Origin: an uncultured virus (IMG/VR IMGVR_UViG_3300028372_000001)
Taxonomy: Duplodnaviria; Heunggongvirae; Uroviricota; Caudoviricetes
Strand: one strand, 5' to 3'
Virus record (IMG/VR): IMGVR_UViG_3300028372_000001
DNA: 64,000 nucleotides
Below, piece after piece: positions 30,454 to 53,087 of this stretch. Under the pieces are notes generated by a model, which saw nothing but the letters and a program-made list of their open reading frames with translations, searched no databases and was not told the DNA's origin. The position numbers and the translations under genes were made by a program. Each line of letters starts with the position of its first letter. The stretch's first letter is position 1.

Positions 30454-30466
30454 CTGTATATTGGAC

Positions 30467-30525: not shown

Positions 30526-30536
30526 AATGAGAGAGT

Positions 30537-30563
30537 AAAAAAAGCCCCGACCGGAGCCGGGGC
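30537..30563 (-). terminator. Intrinsic terminator, duplicated at about 32138-32164
   Basis: gccccggctccggtcggggc followed by T7 on the minus strand. Confidence 0.8.
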
Positions 30564-30598
30564 AAAAGGGGGCCATTGCGGTCCCCCAACGGAGTCTG

Positions 30599-30828: not shown

Positions 30829-31234
30829 TGGGCCGTTCTCCGTTGTCGGCATGGGTGCTATTATACACACCCATGCCGGGATTGCAAGGACTATTGTTGA
30901 GTTGGTGTGGGATTTATTTTATAGGTTCAACCGCTGGAGTCAATCAAAATTTCTGTGAAGATTGCAAAACCGGCTCCGAATGCTCCCGCCGATGCAAGGG
31001 CGAGGATGAAGAACAGGACGGATGCAACCATATCCATCATGCTAGGCTGGCGGAGCATACCGCTTTCTCTGGCGTCGAATGCTGCGGGCATGAAGATACG
31101 GATTCCGACAATGCCAGCGAGCATGAGTGTGAGGGAGAGTATGAACATGGTTCTAGAAGCTCCTGTGCTGCCCTGTACGGGACGGTATAGGAAAGGGGGA
31201 CCGATGGTCCCCCCGTGGTGGTTACTGTCCCCTG

Positions 31235-31957
31235 TCAGGCCGTCAGGCCCTCGGGAAGAATGGTACGCTTGTCCACCTTGAGGCTGGTGAAATTGTCCGA
31301 CTTCAAGGACAGGGAGCGGAACGAGACGCCGGGACGGTCGATGGCCCGCCTGATGGCATTTTTCATGAGCGTCAGCGGGCGGCTGTTGACCACCTTGCGC
31401 TGGCCTTCCACGACATAGGTGGTATTGAGGAAGTGTGCCTCGACCAAGATGCTCGCGATGGTCGGGTATCCGTTCATCAGGACCGGATGAGTTTCGCCGT
31501 CACGCTTCTCGGTTTCGAGGTGGATGCGGATGCCGTCGCTGATGCGGATGAAGCAACGGTCGGATGCCTGACGGCGAGCATCGGAACGGTCGCCCGACTG
31601 AGTTTTCTCGATGCTGGCGAGTTCAGCGTTCAGGGCTTCCGCGAACAGGGCACGCTGCTCGATACCGGTCAGGCTGGACAGCTTGGGTTCCGCAGCAATG
31701 GCGTCCTTCACGTCAGCCAGCGAAACGGTTGCGAGTGCAGCGGCCTTACGCTCCATCATCTTCGCATAGCTGATGCGGCTGATGAACTGGACGTTCATGG
31801 TCGGCGTGGTGATCCAGTCCTTGCTGGAAGGCTGATAGCCTTCGACGGCGGCGACGCCACCCTTGCGAGTTTCGAGAAGGGTAGCGACTGCCTCGACCTG
31901 CTCCGCGTTGGCCCACACGTTCTGATCGTCGATTTTGATGAGGGTGCGGTTGTTCAT
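31235..31957 (-). CDS. Early hypothetical protein
   Basis: GC3-biased ORF with its own leader. Confidence 0.65.
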   Translation of the reverse strand: MNNRTLIKIDDQNVWANAEQVEAVATLLETRKGGVAAVEGYQPSSKDWITTPTMNVQFISRISYAKMMERKAAALATVSLADVKDAIAAEPKLSSLTGIEQRALFAEALNAELASIEKTQSGDRSDARRQASDRCFIRISDGIRIHLETEKRDGETHPVLMNGYPTIASILVEAHFLNTTYVVEGQRKVVNSRPLTLMKNAIRRAIDRPGVSFRSLSLKSDNFTSLKVDKRTILPEGLTA

Positions 31958-32231
31958 GTTTTGCTTCTCCGTTGGTGTGGGTGCCATTCTACATGAGTTC
32001 ACGATACTGGCAAGCGTTTTCTTCACCTAAATTGTTACAGAGTGTTACAGAGCAGCGATACAAATTATTTGAAAAAAAGCGTGACTCCTTGTAAATTAGC
32101 TGCTACCATAGGTTGGCGGTTGGGGAGATGGGCAGGCAAAAAAAGCCCCGACCGGAGCCGGGGCAAAGCAGGGGACCATTGCGGTCCCCCGGTGGAGTGT
32201 GTTAGACGTGGTTGGCGATATAGACGATGGC

Positions 32232-32471
32232 TCAAATGATTGCCTGCTCCAGCGACTCGTTGGAAACATGAAGGCGCGTGAGGGGTTCCGTTCCCCAGCT
32301 GCTACCCGTGAGCGAGCGGAGCCCTTCGCCTTTCAGCACTTCGGAACCGAATGCTTCGAAGGGGCCGACCTGAAAGCTGTAACCAGCGTATTCGAACCGA
32401 CCAGCGTCGTCATACTGCACCGTCACAGATTCGCCGGTCCAGTTGTTTTTGTTCGTGGTGACTTCGTTCAT
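32232..32471 (-). CDS. Early hypothetical protein
   Basis: Own leader. Confidence 0.55.
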   Translation of the reverse strand: MNEVTTNKNNWTGESVTVQYDDAGRFEYAGYSFQVGPFEAFGSEVLKGEGLRSLTGSSWGTEPLTRLHVSNESLEQAII

Positions 32472-32776
32472 GTTTTGCTTCCCCGTCGTTGGTATGGGTT
32501 CATTATACAGACACCATACCAATACACAGGAACTTTCTGAAATTAATTTGAGTGCCGTCGAGCCTCCCGGCTATCAAGGACCGTACCCATGCCCACGATG
32601 AAGGCGAGGAAGGCGACAACGATCATGTAGTCTTGGAAGTATTCCGGGCGGAGCCAAGTCACAATGGCGACGGTTGTGAGCACTGCGAGGATCATGCGGA
32701 TCATGGTGCGTTCCTTCCGTTGACAGTGTTATGCTACATGGACAGCAAAGGGGGCACAAGGCCCCCCGTGGAAGGC

Positions 32777-33244
32777 TTAAGCCTTCCGGTTGTTGGCTGC
32801 GAGCCAGACACCACCGGCCATGCGGGTGAGAGTCCAGATACCGACCGGCAGTGCCATGCCGAAGGTAATCGCCAGACCCTGATGGAAGTAGCCTTCCGCG
32901 TTGGCATAGAATGCCATGCTGTTCAGGAGCATGGATGCGAGGACCGTGCCAATGACATACCGCTTCCCGTAAATGATGGTTTCGCGCAGCTTGCGGCCCA
33001 TGGTGATCGTGACCAGTTCGGCGGAGATCATGCCCGTATCGATTGCCACGGCTGCCGCGAAGCCAATCCAGAGAGACTGCCCGAAGATGCCCGAGATGCC
33101 CATTGCAAGGTGTTCCAGCGAGATTGCCATGAGTGCCAGATTCACCAGTGCAATGCTGGGCACAATGAACCGGTTTGCCATGCGCTTCTGGAAAGCGGTG
33201 AGCTTGAGGTCCGTTGCTTTTGCTTTGCGGGTTGCTGCTGCCAT
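32777..33244 (-). CDS. Early four-TM membrane protein
   Basis: Hydrophobic segments; own promoter. Confidence 0.65.
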   Translation of the reverse strand: MAAATRKAKATDLKLTAFQKRMANRFIVPSIALVNLALMAISLEHLAMGISGIFGQSLWIGFAAAVAIDTGMISAELVTITMGRKLRETIIYGKRYVIGTVLASMLLNSMAFYANAEGYFHQGLAITFGMALPVGIWTLTRMAGGVWLAANNRKA

Positions 33245-33440
33245 GTTTGCTGCTCCGTCGTTGGTATGGGTGAATTATGGGGGATGGGGTGGTGACTGTC
33301 AACAAGTTTCTCGATTATTTTCGAGAGACGAACGGTAGTAGACTCCTTGTAAATTAGCTGCTACCATAGGCTGGCGGTTGGGGGAATGAGGCCGTAAAAT
33401 GGGAGCCATTGCGGCTCCCGTCGTGCTACACTCGCGGGGT

Positions 33441-33713
33441 CTACCGGAGAGTCTGTGCCATGCTTTTCACCTGAGATAGAACAGTGTTCAGATAGTTTGC
33501 GGCTTCCTCCACCTGCTCGTTGGGCCGTGCTCCATCCCACGACAGATTCTCAGGGGACAAGTCATCCTCGATGGTTTCGATGAGTTCCTGACACTGCTCC
33601 TGAGTGAGCGTCTCCAGCTTGATCGGAGCGGCGTTGGGGTGATGAGTGACTACCCGGTGCCCATTGTGCCACCAGATATACCGTTCGAGTTCATCTGTTG
33701 CCATTGCCATCAT
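33441..33713 (-). CDS. Early protein, DLSPENL.xDG family
   Basis: AGGAG RBS; motif shared with the 30599 gene. Confidence 0.6.
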   Translation of the reverse strand: MMAMATDELERYIWWHNGHRVVTHHPNAAPIKLETLTQEQCQELIETIEDDLSPENLSWDGARPNEQVEEAANYLNTVLSQVKSMAQTLR

Positions 33714-34088
33714 CTCCTGTGAATGTGTGTTTATTATCAGGGATATCAGCTAGTCTGTCAACCGTTGTCGGGTACAACCTTGTGGGTGTATGCTGCCGCT
33801 TTCTGGTCAATGCCACGGAAGCTAGCGAGCCAGCGAGGGATGACAACATACGTCATGTTGTGCTTGTTATTGATGATGATTTGATCAATCGGTAGCCAGC
33901 AACAGTTTACTCTGCCACTATGGGAAAGCATCGCCAGACCAGAAACCAATACGTTAACGTCATAGCCTTCCGTGGTCACGTCCGTGAAGGTCAACCGGTC
34001 ATGCTCAGTTATGGGGATCGAACATAGGTCTAGAACCTCTCAGAATGGCTCGTGGCTGGCTTTAATGGTTTGGGGAGGGCCTTACCCC

Positions 34089-34430
34089 TCAGAAAGAGGG
34101 GTTGCGTTCTTCGTGGATACCGAGGACCAACCAGAAGCATCCGTCGGTCCACCCGTGCTGTTTGAACACGCGACCGTCGTTGTCGGTCATGGCCTTGCGA
34201 GGACGGCGGAAAGTGTTGCCCGTGCTTGTGACGATTTTCTCGCCGCTTTTGCTGATCGAAGCGATGGTGCCGACGTGATAGGAGTCACCATTGAACGACA
34301 TGGAGACCTCATCGCCAATCTGCGGGAACTGCTGGGTGGCATACTGAGCCATGCGGTTCGGGGCGAAGGTAACAACCTCATTTTCTGCGAGGGCTGCTTC
34401 TGCTTCTGCGAAGGTGTAGAAAAGATTCAT
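34089..34430 (-). CDS. Early hypothetical protein
   Basis: Own promoter and leader. Confidence 0.6.
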   Translation of the reverse strand: MNLFYTFAEAEAALAENEVVTFAPNRMAQYATQQFPQIGDEVSMSFNGDSYHVGTIASISKSGEKIVTSTGNTFRRPRKAMTDNDGRVFKQHGWTDGCFWLVLGIHEERNPSF

Positions 34431-34541
34431 GTTTTGCTTCTCCGTCGTTGGTATGGGTGTAATATACTCCCATACCAACAACCAGTCAATTCATGAGCGA
34501 CGAACGGTCATCCCACCGCCGGACCATCTGCAGGGTGGTTG

Positions 34542-35027
34542 TCAATACCTTTCATCTAGTTCTGCCCGGTGCTCGATGTACTCCAATACTATGGCTGGCA
34601 CCCCATTGTAAATATGCCCTTGCTTCGTTAGCATACGTTCAATTTCAGGCGGATCGGTTCTGTAATTGGCGAGGCAGTCCCCTAACATGTACCCGATACG
34701 CTCAGCCAGAAACGCAACCCTTTCCTCTAGTCTGTACAATGTGGTGCTATTCATTTTCGAGGCGGGGATATCTTCCGTCACCATCCCCTGCGAATAGTCA
34801 GGATCAGGTCCACACCCAAAATTCACAACCTTCCGTTGATTCGGCGTTGCCAAAATCCAGTGTGCTACTTCATGGAAGGCAAACCCGATCCCGTAGGCTT
34901 TTGCAGTATGCCCATCATATTGTGCTGTCGGGCGGTAAAATACATCCGGGCCTATTCGCTCCATACTGAACCCAAGGTATTCAGCCATTTGAATGGCATC
35001 CTTCCAGATTTCCGATTCGGCTCGCAT
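34542..35027 (-). CDS. HExxH protein reminiscent of EpmC/YfcM
   Basis: FHEVAHWILA....R...NFG...D motif. Confidence 0.45.
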   Translation of the reverse strand: MRAESEIWKDAIQMAEYLGFSMERIGPDVFYRPTAQYDGHTAKAYGIGFAFHEVAHWILATPNQRKVVNFGCGPDPDYSQGMVTEDIPASKMNSTTLYRLEERVAFLAERIGYMLGDCLANYRTDPPEIERMLTKQGHIYNGVPAIVLEYIEHRAELDERY

Positions 35028-35080
35028 TGTGGTTTCTCCGTAGTGGTATGGGTGCAATATACTCCATGGCTCACATCGTG

Positions 35081-35386
35081 TCAATACCTGTTAGCACTCC
35101 ATTCCAGTGAACGCTGGCGACGCTTTTCGTCCACTGTGTTATGGTATTGCGTTTTGCAGCGGTGTTTCCCATCCTTGTTGCAGAACGCTTGCTTCGGGTG
35201 TTTCTTCGTGAATTGCGTGTCACACATCGGACAGATACAGACTGAACCATTGGGTGCTGCCTGATTTTGTCCCTTGTGCACCACCCGAAGCATCCGGTAT
35301 GCTTCCCTTCCGCCTTCCGTGGCCAATTCATGATGCTCGCCTGCTACGTCAGCATCATATGCACCATCCCCTTTAGCGTAACTCAT
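35081..35386 (-). CDS. Zn-finger hypothetical protein
   Basis: CPMC...FC......C. Confidence 0.5.
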   Translation of the reverse strand: MSYAKGDGAYDADVAGEHHELATEGGREAYRMLRVVHKGQNQAAPNGSVCICPMCDTQFTKKHPKQAFCNKDGKHRCKTQYHNTVDEKRRQRSLEWSANRY

Positions 35387-35397
35387 GATGGTGTCCC

Positions 35398-35700
35398 TCA
35401 GAGGATTTTGTTGAGTGCGGACAGGACTCGCTTGCTGCCGCCACTTGCGTTCATCACGAACGTACCACCATCCATGATGCCAATGGCACCCATGCCACCA
35501 CCATCGGTTCCCCACACACTGCCGGAGCGGGTACGCGGGAGTGCGGACAGGACGCTGTAATATTCGCCGTCTGCCTGCACGAATTCCTCGCGATTGGCGA
35601 CATACTTGCGAATGGTCAGAAGGTCGCCACGAACGTCCACGGTCCAGCCGAAACGGTCGGCGGCTTCCTTGATCTTGAGTGCGTCGTCTGCTGCTGCCAT
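35398..35700 (-). CDS. Early hypothetical protein
   Basis: Own promoter and leader; WGTDGGG.G motif. Confidence 0.6.
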   Translation of the reverse strand: MAAADDALKIKEAADRFGWTVDVRGDLLTIRKYVANREEFVQADGEYYSVLSALPRTRSGSVWGTDGGGMGAIGIMDGGTFVMNASGGSKRVLSALNKIL

Positions 35701-35807
35701 GTTTGCTTCTCCGTCGTTGGTATGGGTGTAATATACAGGACAGTGAGTGTGAATTGCAAGCGTTTTTTAGAAAAAGGGGAGGGCATTGCCCCCCCTCATT
35801 CCGTGGA

Positions 35808-36092
35808 TCAGCTGGGCGTCAGACCCAAGTCTAGAAGTTTGCGGTAATGTTCGCGGGCAGCATCGGCCCGATACGCGCCAGCCGTCACAATCTCCCGGCC
35901 CAAGTCATCGCGGAACTGCGCGACCAGCACCCAAACCTGCTTGTCTCCCTTGTTCGCTGCGAATACAACCCGCGTCCCATTTTCGCCCATGAGAGTGTGC
36001 TGCTGCTTGCCAGCGGGTGCCGTATCGGAGAACATCTCAGCACTTTCGATGTAGTGCGTGATCCCGGAGAGTGCGCTTTTGATGGTGGACAT
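35808..36092 (-). CDS. Early hypothetical protein
   Basis: Own promoter and leader. Confidence 0.6.
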   Translation of the reverse strand: MSTIKSALSGITHYIESAEMFSDTAPAGKQQHTLMGENGTRVVFAANKGDKQVWVLVAQFRDDLGREIVTAGAYRADAAREHYRKLLDLGLTPS

Positions 36093-36287
36093 GAATTTCG
36101 CTCCGTCGTTGGTATGGGTGTAATATACTCCACTACCCATAAGCTGTCAATACCGTTCGTCGGGCGTGAGTGGTTGTAGCTGGAGGCGGCTTTGTGGAGT
36201 CATTCCCCCAACCGCCAGCCTATTTTACACCATAAAAAGCAAGGTGGGAAGTACCGTTCGTCGGCCCTTCCACCCTGTCATACTGTG

Positions 36288-36707
36288 CTATGCTTCAGCC
36301 TGCTCCAGCCACCGGATAGCAGTCTCCCGGTCGGCGGCTCCCATTTCCAGCATGGCACTGATGCTGGACTCGTAAGCGGCATCCTCGGCCAGCCGATCAC
36401 GCTCCCCTTGCTTGCAGAGGTCCTCGACTTCTGCCAGAATTTCCTCGGTGTTGAGAGCGTTGTAGTCGAAGGCACGCGGACGGAAACCGTAAACATCCTT
36501 GTAGCAATTCCAATGGGTAGCGATTGCCATATGCCGCTCGTACTGCTCGACAGAGTACACGCCCATTTCGGCCCAATGCTCGGCATCGACCACGGGCATC
36601 ATGGCCCAGCGGTTCTCAGAGTCCTCAGCCACCCATGCCATGGTTTTGGCGTTCGCAGCTTCGATGTAATCGACAAGGGCAATCTGGTCTGCGGTGAGGT
36701 TCGTCAT
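36288..36707 (-). CDS. Early conserved phage protein (YKDVYGFRPR)
   Basis: Own promoter; GA.DRETAIRW motif. Confidence 0.65.
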   Translation of the reverse strand: MTNLTADQIALVDYIEAANAKTMAWVAEDSENRWAMMPVVDAEHWAEMGVYSVEQYERHMAIATHWNCYKDVYGFRPRAFDYNALNTEEILAEVEDLCKQGERDRLAEDAAYESSISAMLEMGAADRETAIRWLEQAEA

Positions 36708-36803
36708 GGGGCGACTCCGTTGTTGGTATGGGTGTAATATACGGGTTGGGGAGGGTGTTGTCAATACCGCTCGTCGGTCGGAACGAAAGCTGTGCTAGTG
36801 CCC

Positions 36804-37046
36804 TCAGATTGCGAGGGCTTGCCCCAGATGGCGGAAGTAGTCGAGCACGTCCCCATTGATGAAATCAATTTTGACGATGACTGCCTTGATGGCAACCTGC
36901 TCCGTGGCGTTGGTTCCCTTGATGCCTTCGACCACGACACCATAGGGCATGACGTTGACGCCGCTCGGGCCTTCGACTTCGAAGGTCTGTTCCAGATCGA
37001 GACCTTTCTCGCTGATGAACGTGTCGAGCCAGTTGATGAAGGTCAT
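36804..37046 (-). CDS. Early hypothetical protein
   Basis: Own promoter and leader. Confidence 0.6.
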   Translation of the reverse strand: MTFINWLDTFISEKGLDLEQTFEVEGPSGVNVMPYGVVVEGIKGTNATEQVAIKAVIVKIDFINGDVLDYFRHLGQALAI

Positions 37047-37145
37047 GGGTCACTCCGTCTGAGGTATGGGTCTAATATACACCCCAACCCGGAAGGTGTC
37101 AACGACCGTTCGTCGGGGATGACAAACGGTCGTTGTGTGCTAGAC

Positions 37146-37457
37146 TCAGGTCAGGACGACCCACTGGTCAGGCTCGATGGAATGGAAGTAGCTAGCTCTG
37201 GCACCGAAATACTGGTGACCCTGTTCCTGCCAGAAGCCGCGACGGAAGCCCATGATGTTGCAGAGGGCATTGAGGCGGCTGCGGGTGGTCGGCGTCGGCC
37301 AGCCTGCGAGGGTGGCATAGATGCGGCCATTCTCCCGCTTGGCGATCACGTTGCCGTGCAGGCTGAGGGTGTCGCCCGTGGACGTGGTGTTGCCCATGGT
37401 CTTGGACTCACCCAGAACGAACGCGGTGCAGACTTCTTCTTCTTCGACCTTGCGCAT
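37146..37457 (-). CDS. Early conserved phage protein (GW.T.TT.SRLNA)
   Basis: Own promoter. Confidence 0.6.
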   Translation of the reverse strand: MRKVEEEEVCTAFVLGESKTMGNTTSTGDTLSLHGNVIAKRENGRIYATLAGWPTPTTRSRLNALCNIMGFRRGFWQEQGHQYFGARASYFHSIEPDQWVVLT

Positions 37458-37511
37458 GTGACGTGCTCCGTTGAAGTGATGAGGCAAATATACTCCCCAT
37501 CCCGGATACTG

Positions 37512-37881
37512 TCAAGTGTTTATTTCCACATCATTGGGGATTGCTATTGAATAGTTTTTGGTGATATTCTCCACGGCTGCCTCTACCTCATAGTTGTCCA
37601 TGTCTGATGCGCCGGTCACGCACCAGTGGACGCCAAAGGCAAAGGTGGCATCACATGCCAGAAGCTGACCATAGTAGAACATCTTCCATTGTTGCAGATT
37701 CGCGTACACTTGTGCGTGGCTGTCCTTCTGTCCCTGATCGCCCCCCCATGGTCGGGTGTCCACAGGTGGGGCACAGACGAGCTTCGGGACCATAAGTGTT
37801 CGCCCACGAATCGGCTTCTTGGACCATCAGCTTAGCCATATGCTCAATCATGTGACGAATTTCGCTGCGGGCAATCCCCAT
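37512..37881 (-). CDS. Hypothetical protein frameshifted at a C7 run (37741-37747)
   Basis: ORFs 37651-37881 and 37512-37793 join if one base is removed. Confidence 0.45.
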
Positions 37882-40967: not shown

Positions 40968-41585
40968 TTAAATTCCATTAGATTCAATAGTTTGATTTTC
41001 CTCTACATTTTTCTTCTTTCTCCCACCCCGTCTGCCATAATATCTTGCAGAATAACAAGTTAAAATTTTCATAATATCCTCTGCTAATTCTTCTTCATAC
41101 TTCTGTTCTTTCGCCTCAACAATCTCAACGGTTATTTCTAAGTTTTTAAAAATAGCATCAAGATATTCATACCCAAATCTTGCAAGTCTATCTTTGTACT
41201 CAATTAAAATACGTTCCACTTTACCCTCAAAGCACAACTTAATCAGTTTATGTATGCCTTTTCTTTTCTCGTTTATCCCACTTGCCATTTCATCAATCAG
41301 GATAAATTTGTAACCTTTGTTTTCAGCGTGTTTTCTAAGTCTGTCTTTTTGTCTCTCAAGGTTTTCCTTCTGCTTTGCCGTTGAACATCTCGCATATATG
41401 ACCGTTAGCTTTTCCTGTTTCTCTTTCTCAACTCCCATATAAGCGTCTAAGTCATCTTGCCTAAAACGCCTATGGCTGCCAGAAGTTTTGAAAGAGTTTA
41501 TCTTGCCCCTATTTGCAAGTGTTTTAAGCGTATTGATTGATACACCTAAATATTCGCTTGCTTTGGTTATCTTATAGATTTTCAT
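40968..41585 (-). CDS. tnpA: IS607-family serine transposase (N-terminal MerR-like HTH plus resolvase domain)
   Basis: ASEYLGVSINTL..GSHRRF; IYARCST..QK.NLERQ; ASG; YKDRLARFG; SAR.YGRR. Confidence 0.9.
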   Translation of the reverse strand: MKIYKITKASEYLGVSINTLKTLANRGKINSFKTSGSHRRFRQDDLDAYMGVEKEKQEKLTVIYARCSTAKQKENLERQKDRLRKHAENKGYKFILIDEMASGINEKRKGIHKLIKLCFEGKVERILIEYKDRLARFGYEYLDAIFKNLEITVEIVEAKEQKYEEELAEDIMKILTCYSARYYGRRGGRKKKNVEENQTIESNGI

Positions 41586-42417
41586 TAAGCAAGCCCTTAA
41601 AAATGTGTGCTATTACATCAACAGTCCACCCGTTACCAATACATTTATATCTCTGTGTTTTGTTTAATGGCAAAGTGTATGTAGGAGGCAGCGTCTGGAA
41701 TCGTTCACATTCTTCGGGAGTAGCTGATCTCGTAATGCCTTCACCACGCCGTATCTTGTCTAAAGTATTGGATTCTAAAGCAATGAGAGCCTGTTTCAAA
41801 TCAACAACAATTCTGTATTTTGTCGCTGGCGATTGTGCAGCAAGAGAAGGGTATTTCTCAAAAAACTTTATTTCGTCTGATATATATCCATGCCCCAAAC
41901 GATATAAATAATCATTAAAACAGTCTGCATCTTTGTTTACTATTTTTGGTATTGAAATATTCGTCCAATATAACCTCTCTCTGTTTTGACATGAAAACAA
42001 AGAACTGTTTATCTTAGATACACTGACTCCTATATATTCACTAATCTTTTCTGCATACTCTTTTTTCATTTTTACATTTTCAAGCAAGAAGTGTTTTGGG
42101 TTAATTTCGTTTTTTAATCTGATAAACTCAAAAAATAATCTGCTTCTTGGGTCATCAAAATTTAATTGTTTACCAGCAAAACTAAACCCTTGGCAGGGGC
42201 TTCCGCCAATCAATAAATCAATCGTTGGCAAGTCCACCCCTTTTACCTTTGTTACATCACCTATATGTTTTGTGTTTGGGTAATTGCGTTTAGTTACTTG
42301 AATTGCATATTTATCAACCTCAGACGCAAAGTAATTATCCACATCTATTCCAGCCCTCTCTAATGCTATCTGACCACAAGATATCCCATCAAATAGACTT
42401 AGTACATTTATTCCCAT
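41572..42417 (-). CDS. DNA (cytosine-5)-methyltransferase
   Basis: LSLFDGI, GGSPCQGFS, LENV, QNRERLYW, ERFQT, GNGW. Confidence 0.92.
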   Translation of the reverse strand: MGINVLSLFDGISCGQIALERAGIDVDNYFASEVDKYAIQVTKRNYPNTKHIGDVTKVKGVDLPTIDLLIGGSPCQGFSFAGKQLNFDDPRSRLFFEFIRLKNEINPKHFLLENVKMKKEYAEKISEYIGVSVSKINSSLFSCQNRERLYWTNISIPKIVNKDADCFNDYLYRLGHGYISDEIKFFEKYPSLAAQSPATKYRIVVDLKQALIALESNTLDKIRRGEGITRSATPEECERFQTLPPTYTLPLNKTQRYKCIGNGWTVDVIAHIFKGLLNENL

Positions 42418-42562
42418 CTTTCGACTCCTTAATTAACTTTTTGTTTGCATTCACAATCTTCTGCATGTCCTCAACAGATATTTCTTTTTCCAAAGTCTCA
42501 AAGAAATAAACTTTTTCATCCTCTGTCTCGAAGTACTCTTTAGTCACTTTTATTATTTTCAT
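42407..42562 (-). CDS. Small ORF (MKIIKVTKEYFETEDEKVYFFE...)
   Basis: AGGAG RBS and promoter; overlaps the MTase start. Confidence 0.5.
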
Positions 42563-42920
42563 CTTTTACTCCTATAATATACTATGTTTTTGGTTAAAAA
42601 GCAAGTGGTTTTAACCGATTTCTTTTGGTTTTGTTGGATTTTCATAAGCAGTTACAACCTCCCGGGTGCGGCCCAGGAGGCTGGTCGATTCCCGCCGCAT
42701 CGCAGCATCTCCTCAGGCGTAACTGGATGCATGAACAGTATCCGATTGCTTGCCGATTGACGTGAGACATCTGCCATTGACGGTGTGGGAGGCCCGGCCG
42801 ATCATCCAGCAGCTATTTCGGAAATCCGAGTTGAACGGACGTTCTTCTATCCAGTTGATACGGCGTACTGGTATCCAGATATCAAAGCGTCCGTACAATA
42901 TCTGTTAGCACTCCCTATAC

Positions 42921-44066
42921 TCAAAACATCTCAGCAACAGTTTCTCCAATAGCGGTTCCAAGCAAGGGAGGCACTGCGTTGCCTATTTGCTTTGTAATTT
43001 GTGTCCTGGTTCCAAAAAATTGGAAAGTATCGTCAAAAGATTGAAGCCGAGCTCCTTCTCTTGGTGTGAGTGCTCTATCTAGCACAGGATGGATGCAACG
43101 GTTTGATGCAGGATGAACAAAGTTAACGGTGATGGTTACTGCCGGATGGTCCGCATCAAGTCGGCTATAACAGCTACTAAATCCGCTAGTTATGAGATGC
43201 TTAGGAATACAGTTTATATTCTTTCCTGAATGCTTAATAATCTCAAGCATCTTATTGGAGTGAGCGGTGGCTATATGTAGCTCTAAAATTTCTGAACTTT
43301 CCCTTCTATCCTTTTGGTATTGATTCTGTGGCGGCATGGAGTATTCACTGGCAATTTCACCTGATGAAATAGGAGGAAGGTCACTTATTGCATCCATAGC
43401 AGACAATGCATCTGGTAGGATTTGCTCCTCAAATAAATCAGGTTCTCGCGGTGCAAGGATTCTAACCTTGTCCCGATAGCCAATTGTCGAGCCTTTGTAA
43501 AAATGAGTAGGAGTTGGAAATAATATCTTCCCTCCCTTTTGAACCCCAATCATGACGAACCTTTCGCGCTTTTGAGGTACACCGAAATGTGCTGCATTAA
43601 GTAGTTTCCAATCGGTTTCATACCCGATTTTTTTAAAGCAATCTTGCATTTTTTCTAGCGTTGTTCCGCCTTTGTGTGTGGCAAGCCCAACAACATTCTC
43701 TAGAATGAAAACTTTCGGCCTGAAATAATTAACGAAAGAAGCGTATTCCTCAAAAAGCGAGTTCCTGGGATCATCTTCTTTAGACGACCTAAAAGGCCTG
43801 ATGGATGAAAAGCCTTGGCAGGGAGGCCCTCCAACGAGAACATCTAACTGATCCCTTTTAACTCCCGTTATTTCCTCTACTTCGTGCCGTCTTAATTGCC
43901 GTATATCTTTACATATGCCGATTCCGGCTCGGTGGTTCAGCTTAAATGTTTCGACAGAGGCTGGAAGCACGTCAATACCGAGTTTAACATCAAAATTTGC
44001 TTGCTTGGAGTTTTCCATGCCCTTGGAAAATCCCCCGGTACCGCAAAAAAGATCAAATACTTTCAT
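42921..44066 (-). CDS. DNA (cytosine-5)-methyltransferase, bacterial R-M type
   Basis: DLFCGTGG, GGPPCQGFS, ENV, PQKRER, REGARLQSF, QIGNAVPP. Confidence 0.95.
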   Translation of the reverse strand: MKVFDLFCGTGGFSKGMENSKQANFDVKLGIDVLPASVETFKLNHRAGIGICKDIRQLRRHEVEEITGVKRDQLDVLVGGPPCQGFSSIRPFRSSKEDDPRNSLFEEYASFVNYFRPKVFILENVVGLATHKGGTTLEKMQDCFKKIGYETDWKLLNAAHFGVPQKRERFVMIGVQKGGKILFPTPTHFYKGSTIGYRDKVRILAPREPDLFEEQILPDALSAMDAISDLPPISSGEIASEYSMPPQNQYQKDRRESSEILELHIATAHSNKMLEIIKHSGKNINCIPKHLITSGFSSCYSRLDADHPAVTITVNFVHPASNRCIHPVLDRALTPREGARLQSFDDTFQFFGTRTQITKQIGNAVPPLLGTAIGETVAEMF

Positions 44067-44989: not shown

Positions 44990-46120
44990 CTACATGATAA
45001 GTTTGTCAAGAAGTTTACGACGCTCAACAAAAATTGCATCGCTGATTTCCTTGCCCTTCAGCGAAGCCTGTTGATCTTCACTGAGGTTATCGAAGCCAAC
45101 CAGTCCCGCTTGAACGACAGCAGACACCACATCATTCGCTATGTGTGCCGCGTCTTCAGAATACGTCATCCACATCATGTATTCCCATTGAATGCACAAC
45201 CGGTCTATGTTATGACTGCTGTCCAGCCTGAAGCGTTTCATGACACCCACCAGAGCATCGAGCAATTCTTCACGACCATCGGTGCGGAACGCTTTGGACA
45301 TAGCTACAGCGAACACGCATTGGTTACGCAGGATGCTCGGCATTTTGGCAGCAACGGCAAAATCGTGTACAACATCTTCGTTCCAGTCTTGGAAGATTGC
45401 CATCCACCGCACCACTTTCGAAGCATCACGGGAGCCAAGTGATCGAAGATTGCAGATAGAGTCCAATAGCACCGAAGCAACATCAGCACCGAACAGTGGC
45501 TCCAGAGCGCCAGCCTCATCGAGCACTTCAATGAAGCGATGGGGATGCGGCTCCATTATGGCATGCTGGCATTCCTTCCATACACGCTCTTTCACAAGCG
45601 AATCAAGGTCACCGTCTGCTACCATGTCCATCATGAAAGCCATCGTCTCCGGGGCAACACTGAAGTTGAAGCGAGCCGCGAATCGTGCAGCACGCAGGAC
45701 ACGCAACGGGTCTTCACGGAATGCAGGCGAAACGTGACGGATGATACCATCAGCGATATCAGCACGACCATTGAAGGGGTCGATGATCTTATCGTCCCAG
45801 CTTCGAGCGATGGCGTTCATCGTGAAGTCACGACGCACCAGATCCTCTTTCAGCGTCACATCTGGAGAGTGGTCCGTCTCGAAGCCTTTGTGACCAGAGC
45901 CAACCTTACGCTCCGTGCGGGCGAGCGCAAACTCATCACCATTTTTATCGAGGAACACGGGGAAGTCTGCACCAACATGCTGAAACCCAGCACGCAGCAT
46001 TTGCTCGGGCGTAGCATTGACTACGACGAAATCGAAATCGTGCGGCTCCCGACCCATGAGTTCGTCACGAACAGCGCCGCCGACCAGAAAGATTTTTGAG
46101 TTGTCAAGAAAGCGGCGCAC
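44990..46120 (-). CDS. cca: tRNA nucleotidyltransferase (CCA-adding enzyme, class II)
   Basis: LVGGAVRD, DFDFVV, ALARTERK, DLVRRDFTMNA, EDPLRVLRAARF, ERVWKE. Confidence 0.93.
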   Translation of the reverse strand: MRRFLDNSKIFLVGGAVRDELMGREPHDFDFVVVNATPEQMLRAGFQHVGADFPVFLDKNGDEFALARTERKVGSGHKGFETDHSPDVTLKEDLVRRDFTMNAIARSWDDKIIDPFNGRADIADGIIRHVSPAFREDPLRVLRAARFAARFNFSVAPETMAFMMDMVADGDLDSLVKERVWKECQHAIMEPHPHRFIEVLDEAGALEPLFGADVASVLLDSICNLRSLGSRDASKVVRWMAIFQDWNEDVVHDFAVAAKMPSILRNQCVFAVAMSKAFRTDGREELLDALVGVMKRFRLDSSHNIDRLCIQWEYMMWMTYSEDAAHIANDVVSAVVQAGLVGFDNLSEDQQASLKGKEISDAIFVERRKLLDKLIM

Positions 46121-48542: not shown

Positions 48543-49437
48543 GTTCGTGCTCCGTTTCGTTTCGATGGGGTCCATTATACGGAATAATTTGTTTATTGCA
48601 AGGTATTGACAGAAAAAAGTTTGGGTGTATGGTTCGCTGACATTGAGGAGGTTTCCCATGGATTTTTTCGACATTCTAATGAGTTTCGGCCTTTTGGCTG
48701 TCGCGATTCTTGCAATCGTGGTATTCTTGGTTGCGGCGCTCGTATCCGTGTTCACCGGTACAGGTATCGTTCGAGTGCTGAGCAATATGTTCGTCGCGCT
48801 GTTCGAACAGTATTGGCAGTATGTGCTGGTCTTGGGTATCTTGGGTATCTTGGGTGGACTTTCTTACATCTGGGTGGTATGATACGCAACAGGCAATATC
48901 ACCCCCAATCAGGAGCATGGCATGGTACATTGGAAATATCACGGTAACGGTTGAGTTCGAGGTGGATGACGAACACGCTGCCGAAAACCATCTGAACAAT
49001 ATTGGCAATGATATCGTGGATAGTTACAGGGACTACGGTACCACCGAGTCGAGCATTCACGACTACTCGGAATTTGAAAATGAGTAAAAAGCTAACGCAA
49101 ACGTTAGCCTTTGGAGATACAGTATGTGTGTAGAACTTGGCTATGACGTGTTTGAGACCGACGATGGGCTTCAGCTTCAGAAAGAAGATGAGAAGTCTCC
49201 GTATGAAAATGACATCGAAGCAGCCATTGCGTGTCTGAACGACGCATGGTATGGTGATGTTCGATCCCGCAACATGATTGCTGCGGTGCTGACGCAGGAT
49301 TCCAAGTACCTTGAGGGTTGACAAATGAAGTATGGGGCTATAACTTGGAAAGGCGTGTGGAAGCACCGCGCTCGTAGGGCACTCAAGCGGCTGGCTCGAA
49401 AGCAAGAGCGTCAAGCGGCAAAGAAGGAGTTGATGTA

Positions 49438-49809
49438 ATGTCGGAGTCAACAGAGTGTAATTGTGGCCATGCCAAGCTCATGTACTACTGCCTCATGTGT
49501 CCGGTGTGTGAGATGGCACAACGGAGGATGGTTACTACCATCAATTTCATCGAGGCGATGTATAAGACCGAAGCTTTGAATGGGCTTGTGCACCGCCAAG
49601 ACAACATCTCAGATGAATTCTGGAAGCAAATCATTTATTGGGATTTGATTAAGGGTAATGACACCACGTTCCAACATGATTTCGTGGATAGGTTGATCGA
49701 AGACGACACGGTTTGGAAGTATCCGGGGGCGAAAAAATTCACGGAATTGTTCGTCAACGCCCTTGACTTGCAGCACAAAGAAAGGATCATATGGATAGTT
49801 TCGTGGTAA
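49438..49809 (+). CDS. Hypothetical Cys-rich protein
   Basis: Operonic ORF. Confidence 0.5.
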   Translation: MSESTECNCGHAKLMYYCLMCPVCEMAQRRMVTTINFIEAMYKTEALNGLVHRQDNISDEFWKQIIYWDLIKGNDTTFQHDFVDRLIEDDTVWKYPGAKKFTELFVNALDLQHKERIIWIVSW

Positions 49810-49848
49810 GAGTTGACACAAGAAGGTAGGTGATGTACAGTATCATAC

Positions 49849-49992
49849 ATAGCCTAGTGGAATTTCAAGAGTAGCGAGGTCTCGTTTAGGGTAGCTCCCA
49901 GTTCCACTAGACTATTTTATTTGAGGTTTGGTAAGTGCCCTGTAGTAACGGGGGTGCCAGTCAAAGGTCGTTGATGGGGGCACTTTGACACA
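49849..49992 (+). ncRNA. Two structured RNA hairpin domains after a sigma70 promoter
   Basis: TTGACA-N17-TACAGT at 49813-49841; stems ctagtggaa/ttccactag and aagtgccc/gggcactt. Confidence 0.45.
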
Positions 49993-50000
49993 AGTTCATT

Positions 50001-50189
50001 GAACCGGTAGTTTATATTCTCCTAGACCAACGGGAGACGAAGGGGCCAAGCTAGCTCCGGGCTGTTTAAAACACACCTTGACTGTAGCGGTGAAGGTTTG
50101 ATTAAGGATACGTCGGTGATCCTTAGCACATGGGGATGCGCCAGTTGGCCCCATGAAGTGAAGAGGTTAGAAGCCTTTCCGGTTCGCCA
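50001..50189 (+). ncRNA. 189-nt enlarged tRNA-like RNA
   Basis: Acceptor GAACCGG/CCGGTTC-G-CCA; T-arm agagg-ttagaag-ccttt; extra hairpins in the D and variable regions. Confidence 0.7.
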
Positions 50190-50233
50190 ATTTAAGTGTT
50201 GACATGAGTCGATTAACCGTCTACACTGTGCAG

Positions 50234-50920
50234 CATGAGTTAGGGAGTTGCGTCCCTTAATGATGTGAGTACTCTCACGAAAGAGAGGGAGGCAGCCGGA
50301 TCGACGGTAGCGAAGCATCAGACTCTATCCGAGGTGGCCTCCATAAGAGTGGGGGAGATTCAAAGGCCGAGGTCGGGAGGCGCTTTGGAACGATAAGAGT
50401 GGGTGAGTCACTCGCCCGAAACAAGGAAAGCCTGATTATGCTTCGGCCTTAAATGGTTCAAGACAAAGGGATTGCCAGTGACAATATAATTAAAGGGCAG
50501 TAAAGGTTGGCAGTTTTCTACGATAAACTGCCTTTGGTGAGGTGCTAGAAAGGACCGGCCCCGTCACCGCGATAACAGGTCCACCAAAATGTGTTTAAAG
50601 TAATTAATGTGGGATAGCAGTAGACCCACCCCCTGAAACTAGGGTTAATAAATACTGTCGATAACTTTGCCCCGTGAAGCGTCGCCTTTTGGGTTGGATG
50701 GCTAAACCCAAATGAGTTACCGGACTCTAAAACCGGATAGAGGTGTCTGGTTGCCTCGAAAATATGAGCCAGATAGGCGGAGGTGTGAAGGCGACCGTAC
50801 ATCAAAGCTGAATCTAATTTTAGCGGAGCCCTTTGTAGTTGGGTGGTTAAACTACCATAATTAGTAGCCGGGAGCGTCACGTCCCCACCTGAGCGGCTAA
50901 AACCGCAACGTGACCGAATT
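50234..50920 (+). ncRNA. Large structured ncRNA of about 690 nt (GOLLD/ROOL-like size class)
   Basis: Own TTGACA-N17-TACACT promoter; no credible ORF; many hairpins and long-range helices. Confidence 0.65.
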
Positions 50921-50936
50921 GAGTGTTGACTAAGCT

Positions 50937-51092
50937 ATGGAACCAACTGATAAGCAAATCAAAGAACATATGGAGTCAACTGGTTTAAATTTTTATAATG
51001 CCAGAGAAGAACTCCGTGAAATGGAATATAAAGACGAACACCCCGACAAACCAAGCGATATGAGTTGGGGCGATTATTGGAAAACATATTAA
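50937..51092 (+). CDS. 51-aa hypothetical protein (MEPTDKQIKEHM...)
   Basis: Short AT-rich ORF filling the gap between RNAs; not in the ORF track. Confidence 0.45.
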   Translation: MEPTDKQIKEHMESTGLNFYNAREELREMEYKDEHPDKPSDMSWGDYWKTY

Positions 51093-51101
51093 CAAGGTTA
51101 T

Positions 51102-51222
51102 CGAGAGTGTACGAAAAGCAGCATAGTAGAATAGCTATTCTCTATGCTCTGGCAACCCGGCGGCACTTGAAAGCCGTGCTCTTAGCGGAGCTTGTAGGTT
51201 CGATCCCTACCACTCTCGACCA
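51102..51222 (+). tRNA. Atypical tRNA-Ser(UGA)-like RNA with an 8-bp acceptor and a hairpin inserted in the D-loop
   Basis: cgagagtg/cactctcg-A-CCA; T-arm gtagg-ttcgatc-cctac; long variable arm; anticodon region acttgaaa. Confidence 0.7.
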
Positions 51223-51289
51223 ATTTCCCTTGACAACCATTCAATAATCCCTTATAATTTATAAATTATAAGCAGGAGACACCCCCCCA

Positions 51290-52432
51290 ATGAACGAACT
51301 TCAAACAACTTTGTACTCGAACCTCATGGCGTTGTGTGATGGGGATGAGGCGTTCTTCTATTCGGATCAAGTGTTGACCCCGAAGACCCGTCCGGGTCAT
51401 TTTCGCATCTTCAACTATCGTCTGGCATCCTATACCCAGTGGCTCCATCCCGGTGCTCTGGAGTGCCGTGGCGTGATGTTCCTCATGGACTCGGAATTCA
51501 AGAATCCGATGTCTCTGATGTCGTGGCCGTTCGAGAAGTTCTTCAACCTCAACGAGAACCCAATGACCATGGGCCTCGATATGAATGATGTTCGCTCGAT
51601 TCAAGCAAAGATGGACGGTTCGCTCATCAGCACGTTCTACTTCGATGGTCATGTTCGAGTCAAGTCGAAGGGATCACTACATTCGGATCAGGCAGTAGCT
51701 GCACAAAGATTGCTTGAATCACCGAAGTGGGATGCACTGTACAACGCATTGGAACAACATGTAATGTTTATGGATCACACTGTCATCATGGAGTACACTG
51801 CTCCTGATAACCGTATCGTGGTTCCGACAGAAGAGCCGACTCTTACTGTGCTTGCGGTTCGAGACAACCGTACTGGTAAATACGTGGGTGATCTTCACGG
51901 GTATATGGTAGAGTACATGACTGACGAAATTATCAACGATGTTGGTGAGGATATTCCGGCGTTCATCGAGGACATTCCGAAAATGACCGGCATCGAGGGG
52001 TTTGTGCTGACCATGGCATCAGGCCAGCGTGTGAAGATCAAGACTGATTGGTACGCGGCACTACATCACTTGAAGGACTCAATCAACTCTCAGCGTCGGC
52101 TGTTCGAGTGTGCAGTGAACGATGCAACTGATGACCTCAAGGCTCAGTTCTGGGATGATTTGCAAGCTGTCGCAATGATCAACCACATGGAAGCCAAGGT
52201 GGCATCCATATACAATCACATGGTGGATCAGGTAGAACGGTTCTACCAGCGGAACAAGCACATGGAGCGTAAGGACTTCGCTATCAAGGGGCAGGCTGAA
52301 CTTGACAAACTGTGCTTCGGGCTGGTGATGGCTAAGTATTCCGGTAAGGAAGTGGACTACAAGGCTACGCTCATCAAGCACCGTAAAAACTTCGGGATCA
52401 AGGATGATCCTGAAATGGGAGCAGAACAATGA
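51290..52432 (+). CDS. rnlA: T4 Rnl1-like RNA ligase
   Basis: IFNYRLASY, ECRG.MF, EKFFNLNEN, KMDGSL, EY.AP.NRIV, IEGFV, KIKTDWY. Confidence 0.92.
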   Translation: MNELQTTLYSNLMALCDGDEAFFYSDQVLTPKTRPGHFRIFNYRLASYTQWLHPGALECRGVMFLMDSEFKNPMSLMSWPFEKFFNLNENPMTMGLDMNDVRSIQAKMDGSLISTFYFDGHVRVKSKGSLHSDQAVAAQRLLESPKWDALYNALEQHVMFMDHTVIMEYTAPDNRIVVPTEEPTLTVLAVRDNRTGKYVGDLHGYMVEYMTDEIINDVGEDIPAFIEDIPKMTGIEGFVLTMASGQRVKIKTDWYAALHHLKDSINSQRRLFECAVNDATDDLKAQFWDDLQAVAMINHMEAKVASIYNHMVDQVERFYQRNKHMERKDFAIKGQAELDKLCFGLVMAKYSGKEVDYKATLIKHRKNFGIKDDPEMGAEQ

Positions 52433-52769: not shown

Positions 52770-53087
52770 TTGAATATGAACAAGGGGCTGCACGTACTTA
52801 TCGATGATATGCGGACGTTGGATGTGGATATCATTTCCCGTAATGGTCAGGTTGCTATGCGCCTCATGGAAGAAGGTGAAGTCAGCCACCTCTACATGGA
52901 CAATGACCTCGGTGAGAACGTTTCCATGGAAGGTATTGACATCCTCAAGTGGGCGAGGGATAATAAAGTCATGCCCCCCAACGTAACGATTGTGTCGGCA
53001 AATATCGTGTGTCGAAAGCGAATGGAAGACCTTTTGCGCTTCGACATGGAATACATTCAGGATGGCAATTGGTGGAGAAAGCATTGA
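52770..53087 (+). CDS. Cyclic-phosphate-processing receiver-like domain
   Basis: LIDDMR...LYMDNDLG....GIDILKW...IVSAN. Confidence 0.65.
   Translation: MNMNKGLHVLIDDMRTLDVDIISRNGQVAMRLMEEGEVSHLYMDNDLGENVSMEGIDILKWARDNKVMPPNVTIVSANIVCRKRMEDLLRFDMEYIQDGNWWRKH

What the first reader, a model, noticed from the sequence alone, without database searches (positions are those of the whole stretch)
50001..50189. 189-nt tRNA-like RNA with canonical acceptor and T arms but multi-hairpin insertions
Seen: a perfect 7-bp acceptor (50001-50007/50179-50185), G discriminator, CCA and a 5-bp T-arm in exact tRNA register, TA at positions 8-9, and a possible D-stem gttt/aaac. The D-loop holds about 55 nt with hairpins ctcc..ggag and ggggc..gctcc. 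A long anticodon-like arm (acctt/aaggt, apex ctgtagc) is followed by two variable-region hairpins, taaggat/atcctta and catgggg/ccccatg. It lacks the Ala acceptor of tmRNA. Inference: a tRNA mimic comparable to YrlA Y RNAs or T4 species 1 RNA, which standard tRNA finders would probably miss.
Basis: partly seen in the sequence, partly recalled or inferred. Interest (0 to 1): 0.8.

Follow-up and report, generated by a model that had tools for sequence, protein, structure and literature searches.

The report
Oversized tRNA-like RNA in a phage
An uncultured lake phage carries a 189-base gene whose RNA would have the two ends of a transfer RNA but a different, much larger middle, most like the unexplained small stable RNAs that phage T4 makes beside its tRNAs.

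Summary
The tRNA-like ends are real. 50001-50007 pairs perfectly with 50179-50185. A 5-bp T stem with the 7-nt loop TTAGAAG abuts the 3' strand, followed by G and CCA. A strict scan for this architecture found only tRNA genes plus this site, and 1 hit in 300 shuffled windows.

ARAGORN and Rfam do not call it. No 7-nt anticodon loop or GG D-loop is visible, so it is not a decoding tRNA.

The window is an uncultured jumbo-phage-like contig from lake and salt-lake metagenomes. The RNA lies in a roughly 1.4-kb ORF-poor island of structured RNAs, between a CCA-adding enzyme gene and a T4 RnlA-type RNA ligase with a cRec gene. The island holds a second oversized tRNA-like RNA (51103-51221) and a hairpin motif that sits inside tRNA arrays of other phages.

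No diverged homologue of the 189-nt RNA was found, so there is no covariation test and no expression data. The internal fold is unresolved: two models lie 4 kcal/mol apart.

Best reading (about 0.55): an RNase P-processed, CCA-ended stable tRNA mimic, architecturally like T4 species 1 RNA. Its function is inferred only. A weak promoter-like site at 49985 could start transcription inside it.

The parts
49813..49841 (+). Promoter-like site TTGACA-17-TACAGT. Likely start of the transcript that carries the sRNA1 hairpin, the spacer hairpin and the tRNA-like RNA.
   Evidence: 10 of 12 consensus matches.
49845..49916 (+). Conserved hairpin RNA ('sRNA1'). A long closing stem leads to a three-way junction with invariant loops GTAGCGAGGTC and GGTAGCTCC.
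   Evidence: the core motif is found in L018 and in 5 IMG/VR loci, there always between tRNA genes; the same architecture is kept with unrelated stem sequences. No Rfam family.
49917..50000 (+). Spacer or leader with hairpin aagtgccc...gggcactt. It would be the 5' leader removed by RNase P; U at -1 (50000).
   Evidence: MFE -24.8, z -1.52, which is weak. One natural variant, G49956T.
49985..50013 (+). Promoter-like TTGACA-17-TAGTTT overlapping the 5' acceptor strand. If active it would start transcription near 50019-50022, inside the RNA.
   Evidence: One search lists it. One search's scan did not list it (only 3 of 6 in the -10); the 3-of-6 class occurs 4 times against 2.14 by chance.
50001..50007 (+). 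5' strand of the 7-bp acceptor stem (GAACCGG).
50018..50037 (+). Hairpin A (UCUCCU / 8-nt loop AGACCAAC / GGGAGA), at the place of a D arm but without GG.
   Evidence: pair probabilities 0.83-1.0.
50042..50152 (+). Large central domain. It is closed by the long-range helix GGGGCCAA/UUGGCCCC in the MFE. It contains an 11-bp arm (50072-50100, UAG triloop) and either the taaggat/atcctta hairpin (50103-50125) or alternative pairings. In the rival fold, catgggg/ccccatg (50129-50155) forms instead.
   Evidence: The natural variant G50115T lies in this domain and leaves the MFE almost unchanged (-66.0 against -66.4).
50162..50178 (+). T arm: AGAGG / UUAGAAG / CCUUU.
50179..50189 (+). 3' acceptor strand CCGGUUC, discriminator G, encoded CCA.
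50199..50227 (+). Next promoter-like site, TTGACA-17-TACACT, 10 nt after the CCA. It drives the next conserved non-coding unit (50228-50544).
   Evidence: One search shows the repeat CCAATTTAAGTGTTGAC / CCGAATTGAGTGTTGAC.
51103..51221 (+). Second oversized tRNA-like RNA (TL2). Acceptor GAGAGTG/CACTCTC, extendable to 8 bp by C51102:G; canonical T arm GTAGG-TTCGATC-CCTAC; then G-A-CCA.
   Evidence: MFE -43.5, z -3.57, 0 of 200 shuffles fold as well.
44990..46120 (-). CCA-adding tRNA nucleotidyltransferase gene.
   Evidence: PolyA_pol head, 8e-22; phrog_2244, 3e-98.
51290..52432 (+). T4 RnlA-family RNA ligase gene behind a perfect TTGACA-17-TATAAT promoter (51230-51258).
   Evidence: TIGR02308, 330 bits against a cutoff of 242.
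52770..53087 (+). cRec (cyclic-phosphate-processing receiver) domain gene.
   Evidence: PF20274, 6e-15, 56 bits against a cutoff of 27.

Best explanation
50001-50189 encodes a small stable phage RNA that mimics only the acceptor/T-arm half of a tRNA.

Proposed route; every step is inferred and none is shown:
1. It is transcribed by host sigma-70 polymerase as part of a longer early transcript, most likely from the promoter-like site at 49813, through the conserved sRNA1 hairpin and an 84-nt spacer.
2. Host RNase P recognises the 12-bp acceptor/T-arm stack with its 3' GCCA. It cuts between U50000 and G50001.
3. The 3' end is trimmed to the genome-encoded CCA. It can be kept intact by the phage's own CCA-adding enzyme.
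4. The remaining ~150 nt fold into three or more extra helices. They offer no 7-nt anticodon loop and no GG D-loop, so the RNA cannot decode.

Its tRNA-like ends serve as a processing and stability handle. They may also let it engage tRNA-binding proteins. Given its place between the CCA-adding enzyme and the RnlA/cRec repair genes, the favoured functional guess is a decoy or scaffold in the conflict over tRNA cleavage and repair.
For: - The architecture is far beyond chance: 1 hit in 300 shuffles for the strict pattern.
- 6 of 7 T-arm invariants are kept, with U at -1, G73 and CCA (tRNA numbering recalled).
- All 5 tRNA genes of this phage also encode CCA.
- No + strand ORF of 40 aa or more lies between 49810 and 50264. 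The antisense ORF 50022-50318 has no Pfam family and no homologue.
- It lies in an ORF-poor island whose other units are conserved as non-coding sequence in L018, a relative whose ligase is 71% identical.
- A second RNA with the same design lies 900 nt downstream.
- In 5 IMG/VR contigs the upstream sRNA1 motif is flanked by tRNA genes. This RNA therefore occupies a tRNA slot.
- The block 49724-50298 is retained with 2 single-base differences. Its flanks are swapped in strain variants from four metagenome runs and in L012.
- RNA-repair genes are adjacent. Their reading as jumbo-phage counter-defence comes from passages of PMC7824862.
- Precedent: T4 species I and II RNAs are cut from the tRNA-cluster precursor (passage of PMC2330249). 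The annotated T4 rnaC has a T arm at its 3' end.
Against: - No diverged homologue exists. nhmmer and a covariance model found only identical copies (L011, L012) in 150-280 kb of related loci. There were no matches in phage GenBank records, IMG/VR or species genomes. There is therefore no covariation support, and L018 lacks this RNA.
- The fold z-score is only -2.42.
- Internal pairing is ambiguous.
- T loop position 56 is A, and no partner D-loop is evident.
- TTGACA-17-TAGTTT at 49985 would start transcription inside the RNA.
- The sRNA1 hairpin ends in ATTTTATTT, which could terminate the upstream transcript.
- The function is pure inference.
Confidence: 0.55

Rival explanations
1. Decayed or chance relic. 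A former tRNA gene, or a fortuitous inverted repeat next to a T-arm-like hairpin, that is no longer a functional RNA.
For: It is an orphan, found only in near-identical strains and absent from L018. The T loop has A56 and there are no D-loop or anticodon features. The z-score is modest.
Against: A perfect 7-bp acceptor, an exact register and an intact GCCA are unlikely to survive decay or to arise by chance. A second RNA of the same design lies nearby. The block is retained while its flanks are exchanged.
Confidence: 0.15
2. The real transcript starts at the 49985 promoter, near 50020. The 5' acceptor strand is then not in the RNA, and the product is a ~170-nt sRNA or leader that merely ends in a T-arm-like hairpin.
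For: Perfect -35, 17-nt spacer and TAnnnT -10. Sites of this form are 7-fold enriched in the window, 42 against 5.8. Other island units have their own promoters immediately upstream.
Against: The -10 matches only 3 of 6. That class is barely enriched, 4 against 2.14. No purine lies 5-9 nt downstream. This reading leaves the exact 7-nt complement, which sits in tRNA register, unexplained. Both transcripts could coexist.
Confidence: 0.12
3. A Y RNA (YrlA-like) partner of a Ro60/Rsr protein encoded elsewhere in the phage genome.
For: YrlA RNAs are tRNA mimics, occur in phages, and can be cut by RNase P and receive CCA (PMC4201824, passages). E3 contains GACGAAG at 50036-50042, which fits the GNCGAAN0-1G motif. 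Some jumbo phages carry TROVE proteins (PMC7824862 passage).
Against: There is no Rfam match at E<=10. No TROVE domain was found in 101 ORFs of the 64-kb window, whereas YrlA genes lie within 4 kb of rsr. The motif is expected 0.11 times per 189 nt by chance. Here the termini form the acceptor stem, not a Ro-binding stem.
Confidence: 0.05
4. One module of a single very large ornate RNA spanning the island (GOLLD/ROOL-like), not an independent RNA.
For: About 1.4 kb is nearly ORF-free and densely structured, from lake metagenomes and next to tRNAs. GOLLD and ROOL are phage- and tRNA-associated; this is recalled, apart from the listing of PMC12286853.
Against: No GOLLD or ROOL match at E<=10. 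There are several internal promoter-like sites. Units are shuffled, duplicated or missing between the window, L012 and L018.
Confidence: 0.05
5. A phage attachment site that copies the 3' end of a host tRNA or tmRNA gene.
For: attP sites often carry a T arm, a 3' acceptor strand and CCA of a host tRNA gene (recalled).
Against: The matching 5' acceptor strand is present too. No integrase gene lies nearby; the only recombinase, at 40968-41585, is a small HTH-resolvase type 9 kb away. The non-canonical T loop does not fit a copy of a working host tRNA.
Confidence: 0.02

Closest known systems
Phage T4 species 1 and species 2 RNAs (rnaC, rnaD)
   Same: Small non-decoding RNAs encoded in a phage tRNA region. 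T4's are cut from the tRNA-cluster precursor (PMC2330249 passage). rnaC (139 nt as annotated) has a T arm (CCGGG-UUCGAAU-CCCGG) close to its 3' end and long hairpins in place of the D and anticodon arms. Their function has not been established (recalled).
   Different: There is no detectable sequence or covariance-model similarity (L044 included). This RNA is longer (189 nt), has a perfect 7-bp acceptor and encodes CCA. As I read, the rnaC termini pair only 5 of 7 and no CCA is encoded. Its T loop is canonical; this one has A56.
YrlA bacterial and phage Y RNAs
   Same: Non-coding tRNA mimic. The M. smegmatis YrlA has a 7-bp acceptor-like stem, is cut by RNase P and receives CCA (PMC4201824 passages). 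YrlA is linked to RNA repair and decay.
   Different: YrlA is defined by a Ro60-binding module and by lying near rsr. Neither was found here. YrlA mimics the D arm as well; no D-arm mimic is visible here.
tmRNA
   Same: Acceptor plus T-arm tRNA-like domain formed by the two ends, a large non-tRNA middle, and a CCA end.
   Different: No G3:U70 (A3-U70 here), no tag reading frame, and no Rfam or ARAGORN tmRNA call for this site. It is far shorter than the tmRNAs I recall.
Canonical phage tRNA genes
   Same: 7-bp acceptor, U8 A9, T arm, discriminator and encoded CCA, as in the five tRNAs of this window.
   Different: 189 nt, with no 7-nt anticodon loop and no G18 G19. It scores nothing against RF00005.

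Membership tests
tRNA (Rfam RF00005 / ARAGORN) | 7-bp acceptor stem, discriminator and CCA. | tested here: met
tRNA (Rfam RF00005 / ARAGORN) | T arm: 5-bp stem with G53-C61 and loop U54 U55 C56 R57 A58. | tested here: inconclusive
   all kept except C56, which is A; one G-U in the stem. Numbering is recalled.
tRNA (Rfam RF00005 / ARAGORN) | D arm with G18 G19, and a 5-bp anticodon stem with a 7-nt loop. | tested here: not met
   predicted loops are 8, 3 and 9 or more nt, and no GG loop is seen. The proposed D stem has probability of at most 0.0006.
tRNA (Rfam RF00005 / ARAGORN) | Score above the family threshold. | tested here: not met
   No RF00005 match even at E<=10. ARAGORN gives none at default settings or in intron mode.
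tmRNA | G3:U70 alanine identity pair, tag ORF and pseudoknots. | tested here: not met
   A3-U70. No tmRNA call at this site. The only low-threshold ARAGORN tmRNA call lies elsewhere, 50870-51218.
YrlA / Y RNA | Match to the YrlA covariance model. | tested here: not met
   No Rfam match of any family at E<=10.
YrlA / Y RNA | Encoded within a few kb of a Ro60/Rsr (TROVE) gene on the same strand. | tested here: not met
   No TROVE domain in 23 + 5 + 73 ORFs of the window. The rest of the phage genome was not available.
YrlA / Y RNA | GNCGAAN0-1G motif near the 5' end. | tested here: inconclusive
   GACGAAG at 50036-50042, but 0.11 such motifs are expected per 189 nt.
T4 species 1/2-type phage stable RNAs | Encoded among phage tRNA genes, with an acceptor/T-arm-like 3' part and a non-tRNA body. 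| tested here: met
   Within 64 kb that hold 5 tRNA genes it occupies the slot that tRNAs hold after the sRNA1 motif in other phages.
T4 species 1/2-type phage stable RNAs | Sequence or structure homology to rnaC or rnaD. | tested here: not met
   Covariance model R1 found nothing in L044.
T4 species 1/2-type phage stable RNAs | Stable RNA processed from a polycistronic precursor by RNase P. | not testable with these tools
   No RNA run holds the stretch.
GOLLD / ROOL large ornate RNAs | Match to the Rfam models. | tested here: not met
   0 matches at E<=10 over 49300-51400.

The most novel reading that the evidence does not exclude
The 49.8-51.2 kb island is a dedicated battery of phage non-coding RNAs of families not yet described. 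It includes two 'armoured' tRNA mimics: this 189-nt RNA and TL2 at 51103-51221. They keep only the acceptor/T-arm face of tRNA, with CCA ends serviced by the phage's own CCA-adding enzyme. They act as decoys or scaffolds that divert host tRNA-directed defence nucleases or toxins, or recruit the adjacent RnlA/cRec repair enzymes. This would be an RNA-based counter-defence class, and it could finally suggest a role for T4 species 1 and 2 RNAs.
Probability: 0.12. Interest if true: 0.8.

Novelty: new variant of a known kind. Interest (0 to 1): 0.5.

Why it matters
Phage tRNA regions have long been known to hold non-decoding, tRNA-ended stable RNAs (T4 species 1 and 2). Their role has never been explained.

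This site shows the same design principle in an unrelated lake phage. It occurs twice, next to a CCA-adding enzyme and an RnlA/cRec repair module, within a cluster of other conserved but unclassified RNAs.

If these RNAs are made and processed as proposed, they give a second, independent system in which to ask what such mimics do. One option is decoys for tRNA-targeting defences; another is scaffolds for repair enzymes; a third is mere processing handles.

They also show that tRNA finders and Rfam systematically miss this class.

Tried and rejected
Homologue searches that found nothing:
- blastn of 49400-50900 against 50,697 phage records: no match.
- IMG/VR: an exact 20-mer of the 3' end and a 16-mer of the next unit gave 0 matches. 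Ligase relatives there are only 23-29% identical.
- Species genomes: a 25-base island pattern gave 0 matches. Ligase relatives are at most 30% identical.
- Metagenome scan with the ligase: 28 loci. Only L011 and L012 hold the RNA, both 100% identical. L013 ends before it.
- nhmmer of the RNA against 44 loci found only those two copies.
- nhmmer against the window found no paralogue.
- Covariance model R1 over 18 sources (150,291 bases) found the query itself plus two weak hits, E 0.65 and 5.9, at 43454 and 43600 on the minus strand. I regard those as noise.
No whole genome is held for the window.

Expression:
- No RNA holder was listed among the 24 runs.
- The four runs laid were contigs only, so they gave no ends or strand.

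Other attempts:
- Strain variation was too low to test structure. There was 1 difference in the RNA (G50115T), and the same MFE class results with or without it.
- ARAGORN at lowered thresholds (ps60-80) gave mutually overlapping calls across the island, on both strands. I treat them as noise.
It was corrected to -52.7.
- The earlier-findings look-up returned nothing.
- Two literature searches failed on a too-short term.
- The two searches for phage tRNA-like, decoy or array RNAs listed no paper describing an RNA like this one. I read only listings and the passages cited.
- The attP reading and the antisense protein-coding reading were considered and rejected.

Full report
**What the window is.** No genome is held for it, and blastn of the region finds nothing among GenBank phages.

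Its genes are phage genes:
- a CCA-adding enzyme at 44990-46120 (-);
- a GP88-family protein;
- a T4 RnlA-type RNA ligase at 51290-52432 (+), above NCBIfam's cutoff;
- a cRec domain protein, SprT, an endolysin, ArdC-like and methyltransferase genes;
- five tRNA genes.

The closest cultured phages by protein are Xanthomonas jumbo phages at 40-44% identity. The stretch is held by 24 lake-water and salt-lake DNA runs. Sigma-70-type sites (TTGAC[ATG]-N16-18-TAnnnT) number 42, against 5.8 in shuffles.

**The observation.** The sequence shows:
- a perfect 7-bp inverted repeat, 50001-50007 with 50179-50185;
- a directly abutting 5-bp stem, AGAGG/CCTTT, with the 7-nt loop TTAGAAG;
- then G and CCA;
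- TA follows the 5' strand.

In recalled tRNA numbering the T arm keeps G53-C61, U54, U55, R57 and A58, and has A instead of C56.

A strict pattern scan found this site and tRNA genes only, with 1 hit in 300 shuffled windows. The strict scan demands a perfect acceptor, so it missed three of the five real tRNAs. The relaxed scan finds four of the five plus this site, TL2 and two probable chance hits, against 0.78 per shuffle. All five tRNA genes encode CCA, as this RNA does.

ARAGORN and Rfam do not report the site, even at E<=10 and in intron mode.

**Internal fold.** The unconstrained MFE (-66.4 kcal/mol; z -2.42; 1 of 200 shuffles as good) is itself cloverleaf-like in topology:
- the acceptor;
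- a 6-bp hairpin (50018-50037);
- a large arm closed by GGGGCCAA/UUGGCCCC (50042-49 with 50145-52; pair probability 0.96 for 50042-47, 0.75 and 0.46 for 50048 and 50049);
- a 9-nt linker;
- the T arm.

Scored exactly it gives -52.7. The best fold that keeps all of its helices gives -62.4. A gap of 4 kcal/mol does not decide between them, and no comparative data exist. Neither model offers a 7-nt anticodon loop or a GG D-loop, so I conclude it is not a decoding tRNA.

**Surroundings.** From about 49810 to 51230 there is almost no credible coding sequence.
- The antisense ORF 50022-50318 has no family and no homologue.
- ORF 50545-50880 (-) overlaps sequence that is conserved in L018, where no ORF exists.

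The island reads as a string of units:
1. promoter-like 49813;
2. a hairpin RNA (49845-49916);
3. a spacer hairpin;
4. the 189-nt RNA;
5. promoter-like 50199, 10 nt after its CCA;
6. a ~300-nt structured unit;
7. a further conserved element (50704-50918);
8. a 51-codon ORF;
9. a second oversized tRNA-like RNA, TL2 (51103-51221);
10. the perfect promoter of the ligase.

TL2 has a 7-bp acceptor that extends to 8 bp, a fully canonical T arm (GTAGG-TTCGATC-CCTAC), then A-CCA. Its fold gives z -3.57. It has no promoter-like site directly upstream, so it would need 5' processing.

**Relatives.** A metagenome scan with the ligase gave 28 loci.
- L011 and L012 carry the RNA unchanged.
- L018 has a ligase 71% identical over its first 89 residues on a 2.9-kb contig. 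It has a comparable ~1.2-kb ORF-free stretch with homologues of the hairpin RNA, the 50228 unit (twice) and the 50704 element. It has no homologue of the 189-nt RNA or of TL2.
- Just before its ligase promoter, L018 has instead a 72-nt tRNA (Rfam 45.9 bits) with a 6-nt anticodon loop.

The hairpin core (GTAGCGAGGTC ... GGTAGCTCC) recurs in five IMG/VR contigs. There it always lies between tRNA genes in arrays of 7-14 tRNAs. The same three-way-junction architecture is kept, but the closing stems are unrelated in sequence. In those phages the next gene after the hairpin is a tRNA. Here it is the 189-nt RNA.

**Strain variants.** Contigs from four runs show that 49724-50298 is kept with two single-base differences: G49956T, and G50115T inside the RNA. 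Sequence before 49672 (X3), or after 50298 (X7, X12, X17, and L012), is replaced by something else. The variation is too small to test pairing.

**The promoter caveat.** TTGACA-17-TAGTTT at 49985 would start transcription around 50020, inside the RNA.
- The consensus scan did not list it.
- Among my 42 sites, those whose -10 matches only 3 of 6 number 4, against 2.14 expected by chance. The 5-of-6 class numbers 19 against 0.97.
- No purine lies 5-9 nt downstream.

I give it roughly even odds of being active. If it is, it could coexist with read-through from 49813. Against read-through, the hairpin RNA ends in ATTTTATTT.

**Interpretation.** The features that are kept (acceptor/T-arm stack, U-1, G73, CCA) are, from established knowledge that I recall here, the ones RNase P and CCA-adding enzymes use. 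[quoted passage not shown] The features lost are those needed for decoding.

That pattern, the genomic slot and the twin RNA TL2 point to a processed, stable tRNA mimic. The closest known analogues are T4 species 1 and 2 RNAs. Those are cut from the tRNA-cluster precursor (PMC2330249 passage). The annotated rnaC has a T arm near its 3' end and hairpins elsewhere.

I found no homology to them, so this is likeness of design, not membership. YrlA, tmRNA and GOLLD/ROOL fail the membership tests listed.

The functional step, decoy or scaffold in tRNA damage and repair, rests only on neighbourhood. It also rests on the view of jumbo-phage RNA-repair genes as counter-defence (PMC7824862 passages). 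It is inference.

**Verdict.** This is a real and statistically unusual tRNA-ended element, probably an RNA gene and an orphan. The internal structure and function are unresolved and there is no expression evidence. It is a new variant of a known but poorly understood kind. The surrounding island of unclassified conserved RNAs is at least as interesting as the finding itself.

Noticed in passing
window 51102-51221 (+): Second oversized tRNA-like RNA (TL2). Acceptor GAGAGTG/CACTCTC, 8 bp with C-1:G; TA at positions 8-9; a 12-bp hairpin with an AGCT tetraloop where a D arm would be; a 5-bp stem with the 8-nt loop ACTTGAAA; a 5-bp extra hairpin; a canonical T arm; then A-CCA. Not called by ARAGORN or Rfam. 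Identical in L011-L013.
   Followed up: partly
window 49845-49916 (+); L018 1636-1706; L039-L043: Unclassified conserved hairpin RNA. Invariant loops GTAGCGAGGTC and GGTAGCTCC sit in a three-way junction closed by a long stem that differs completely between lineages. In five IMG/VR contigs it sits between tRNA genes of large arrays. No Rfam family.
   Followed up: partly
window 50228-50544 (+); L018 816-1016 and 1020-1224: Structured non-coding unit of about 300 nt behind promoter-like 50199. It is conserved (about 75% identity) and duplicated in tandem in L018. In strain variants (L012; runs X7, X12, X17) everything after 50298 is replaced by a cassette with protein genes.
   Followed up: partly
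window 50704-50918 (+); L018 1405-1624: Another conserved element, with at least one compensatory stem change (tagt...acta against cagt...actg). It is overlapped by ORF 50545-50880 (-), which is therefore probably not a gene.
   Followed up: no
L018 1823-1898: A tRNA (Rfam 45.9 bits) with a 6-nt anticodon loop GCGTCA and a possible 8-bp acceptor followed by T-CCA. It lies just upstream of the ligase promoter, in the position TL2 holds in the window.
   Followed up: no
window 28429-37515 (-): Eight near-identical promoter-plus-leader modules (TTGACA-17-TATATT followed by ACACCCATACCAAC or a close variant). They lie in the GC-rich block 26-38 kb, which is 51-58% GC against about 40-49% elsewhere.
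   Followed up: no
window 2248-2254 (+): GCGAATA, a perfect complement of the 3' acceptor strand of tRNA-Gly (2298-2373), lies 50 nt upstream of the real 5' strand GCGAATG. It may be a competing leader pairing or chance.
   Followed up: no
window 40968-44066 (-): A small HTH-resolvase-type recombinase (phrog 'transposase') lies next to two C5 cytosine methyltransferase genes (41572-42417 and 42921-44066).
   Followed up: no
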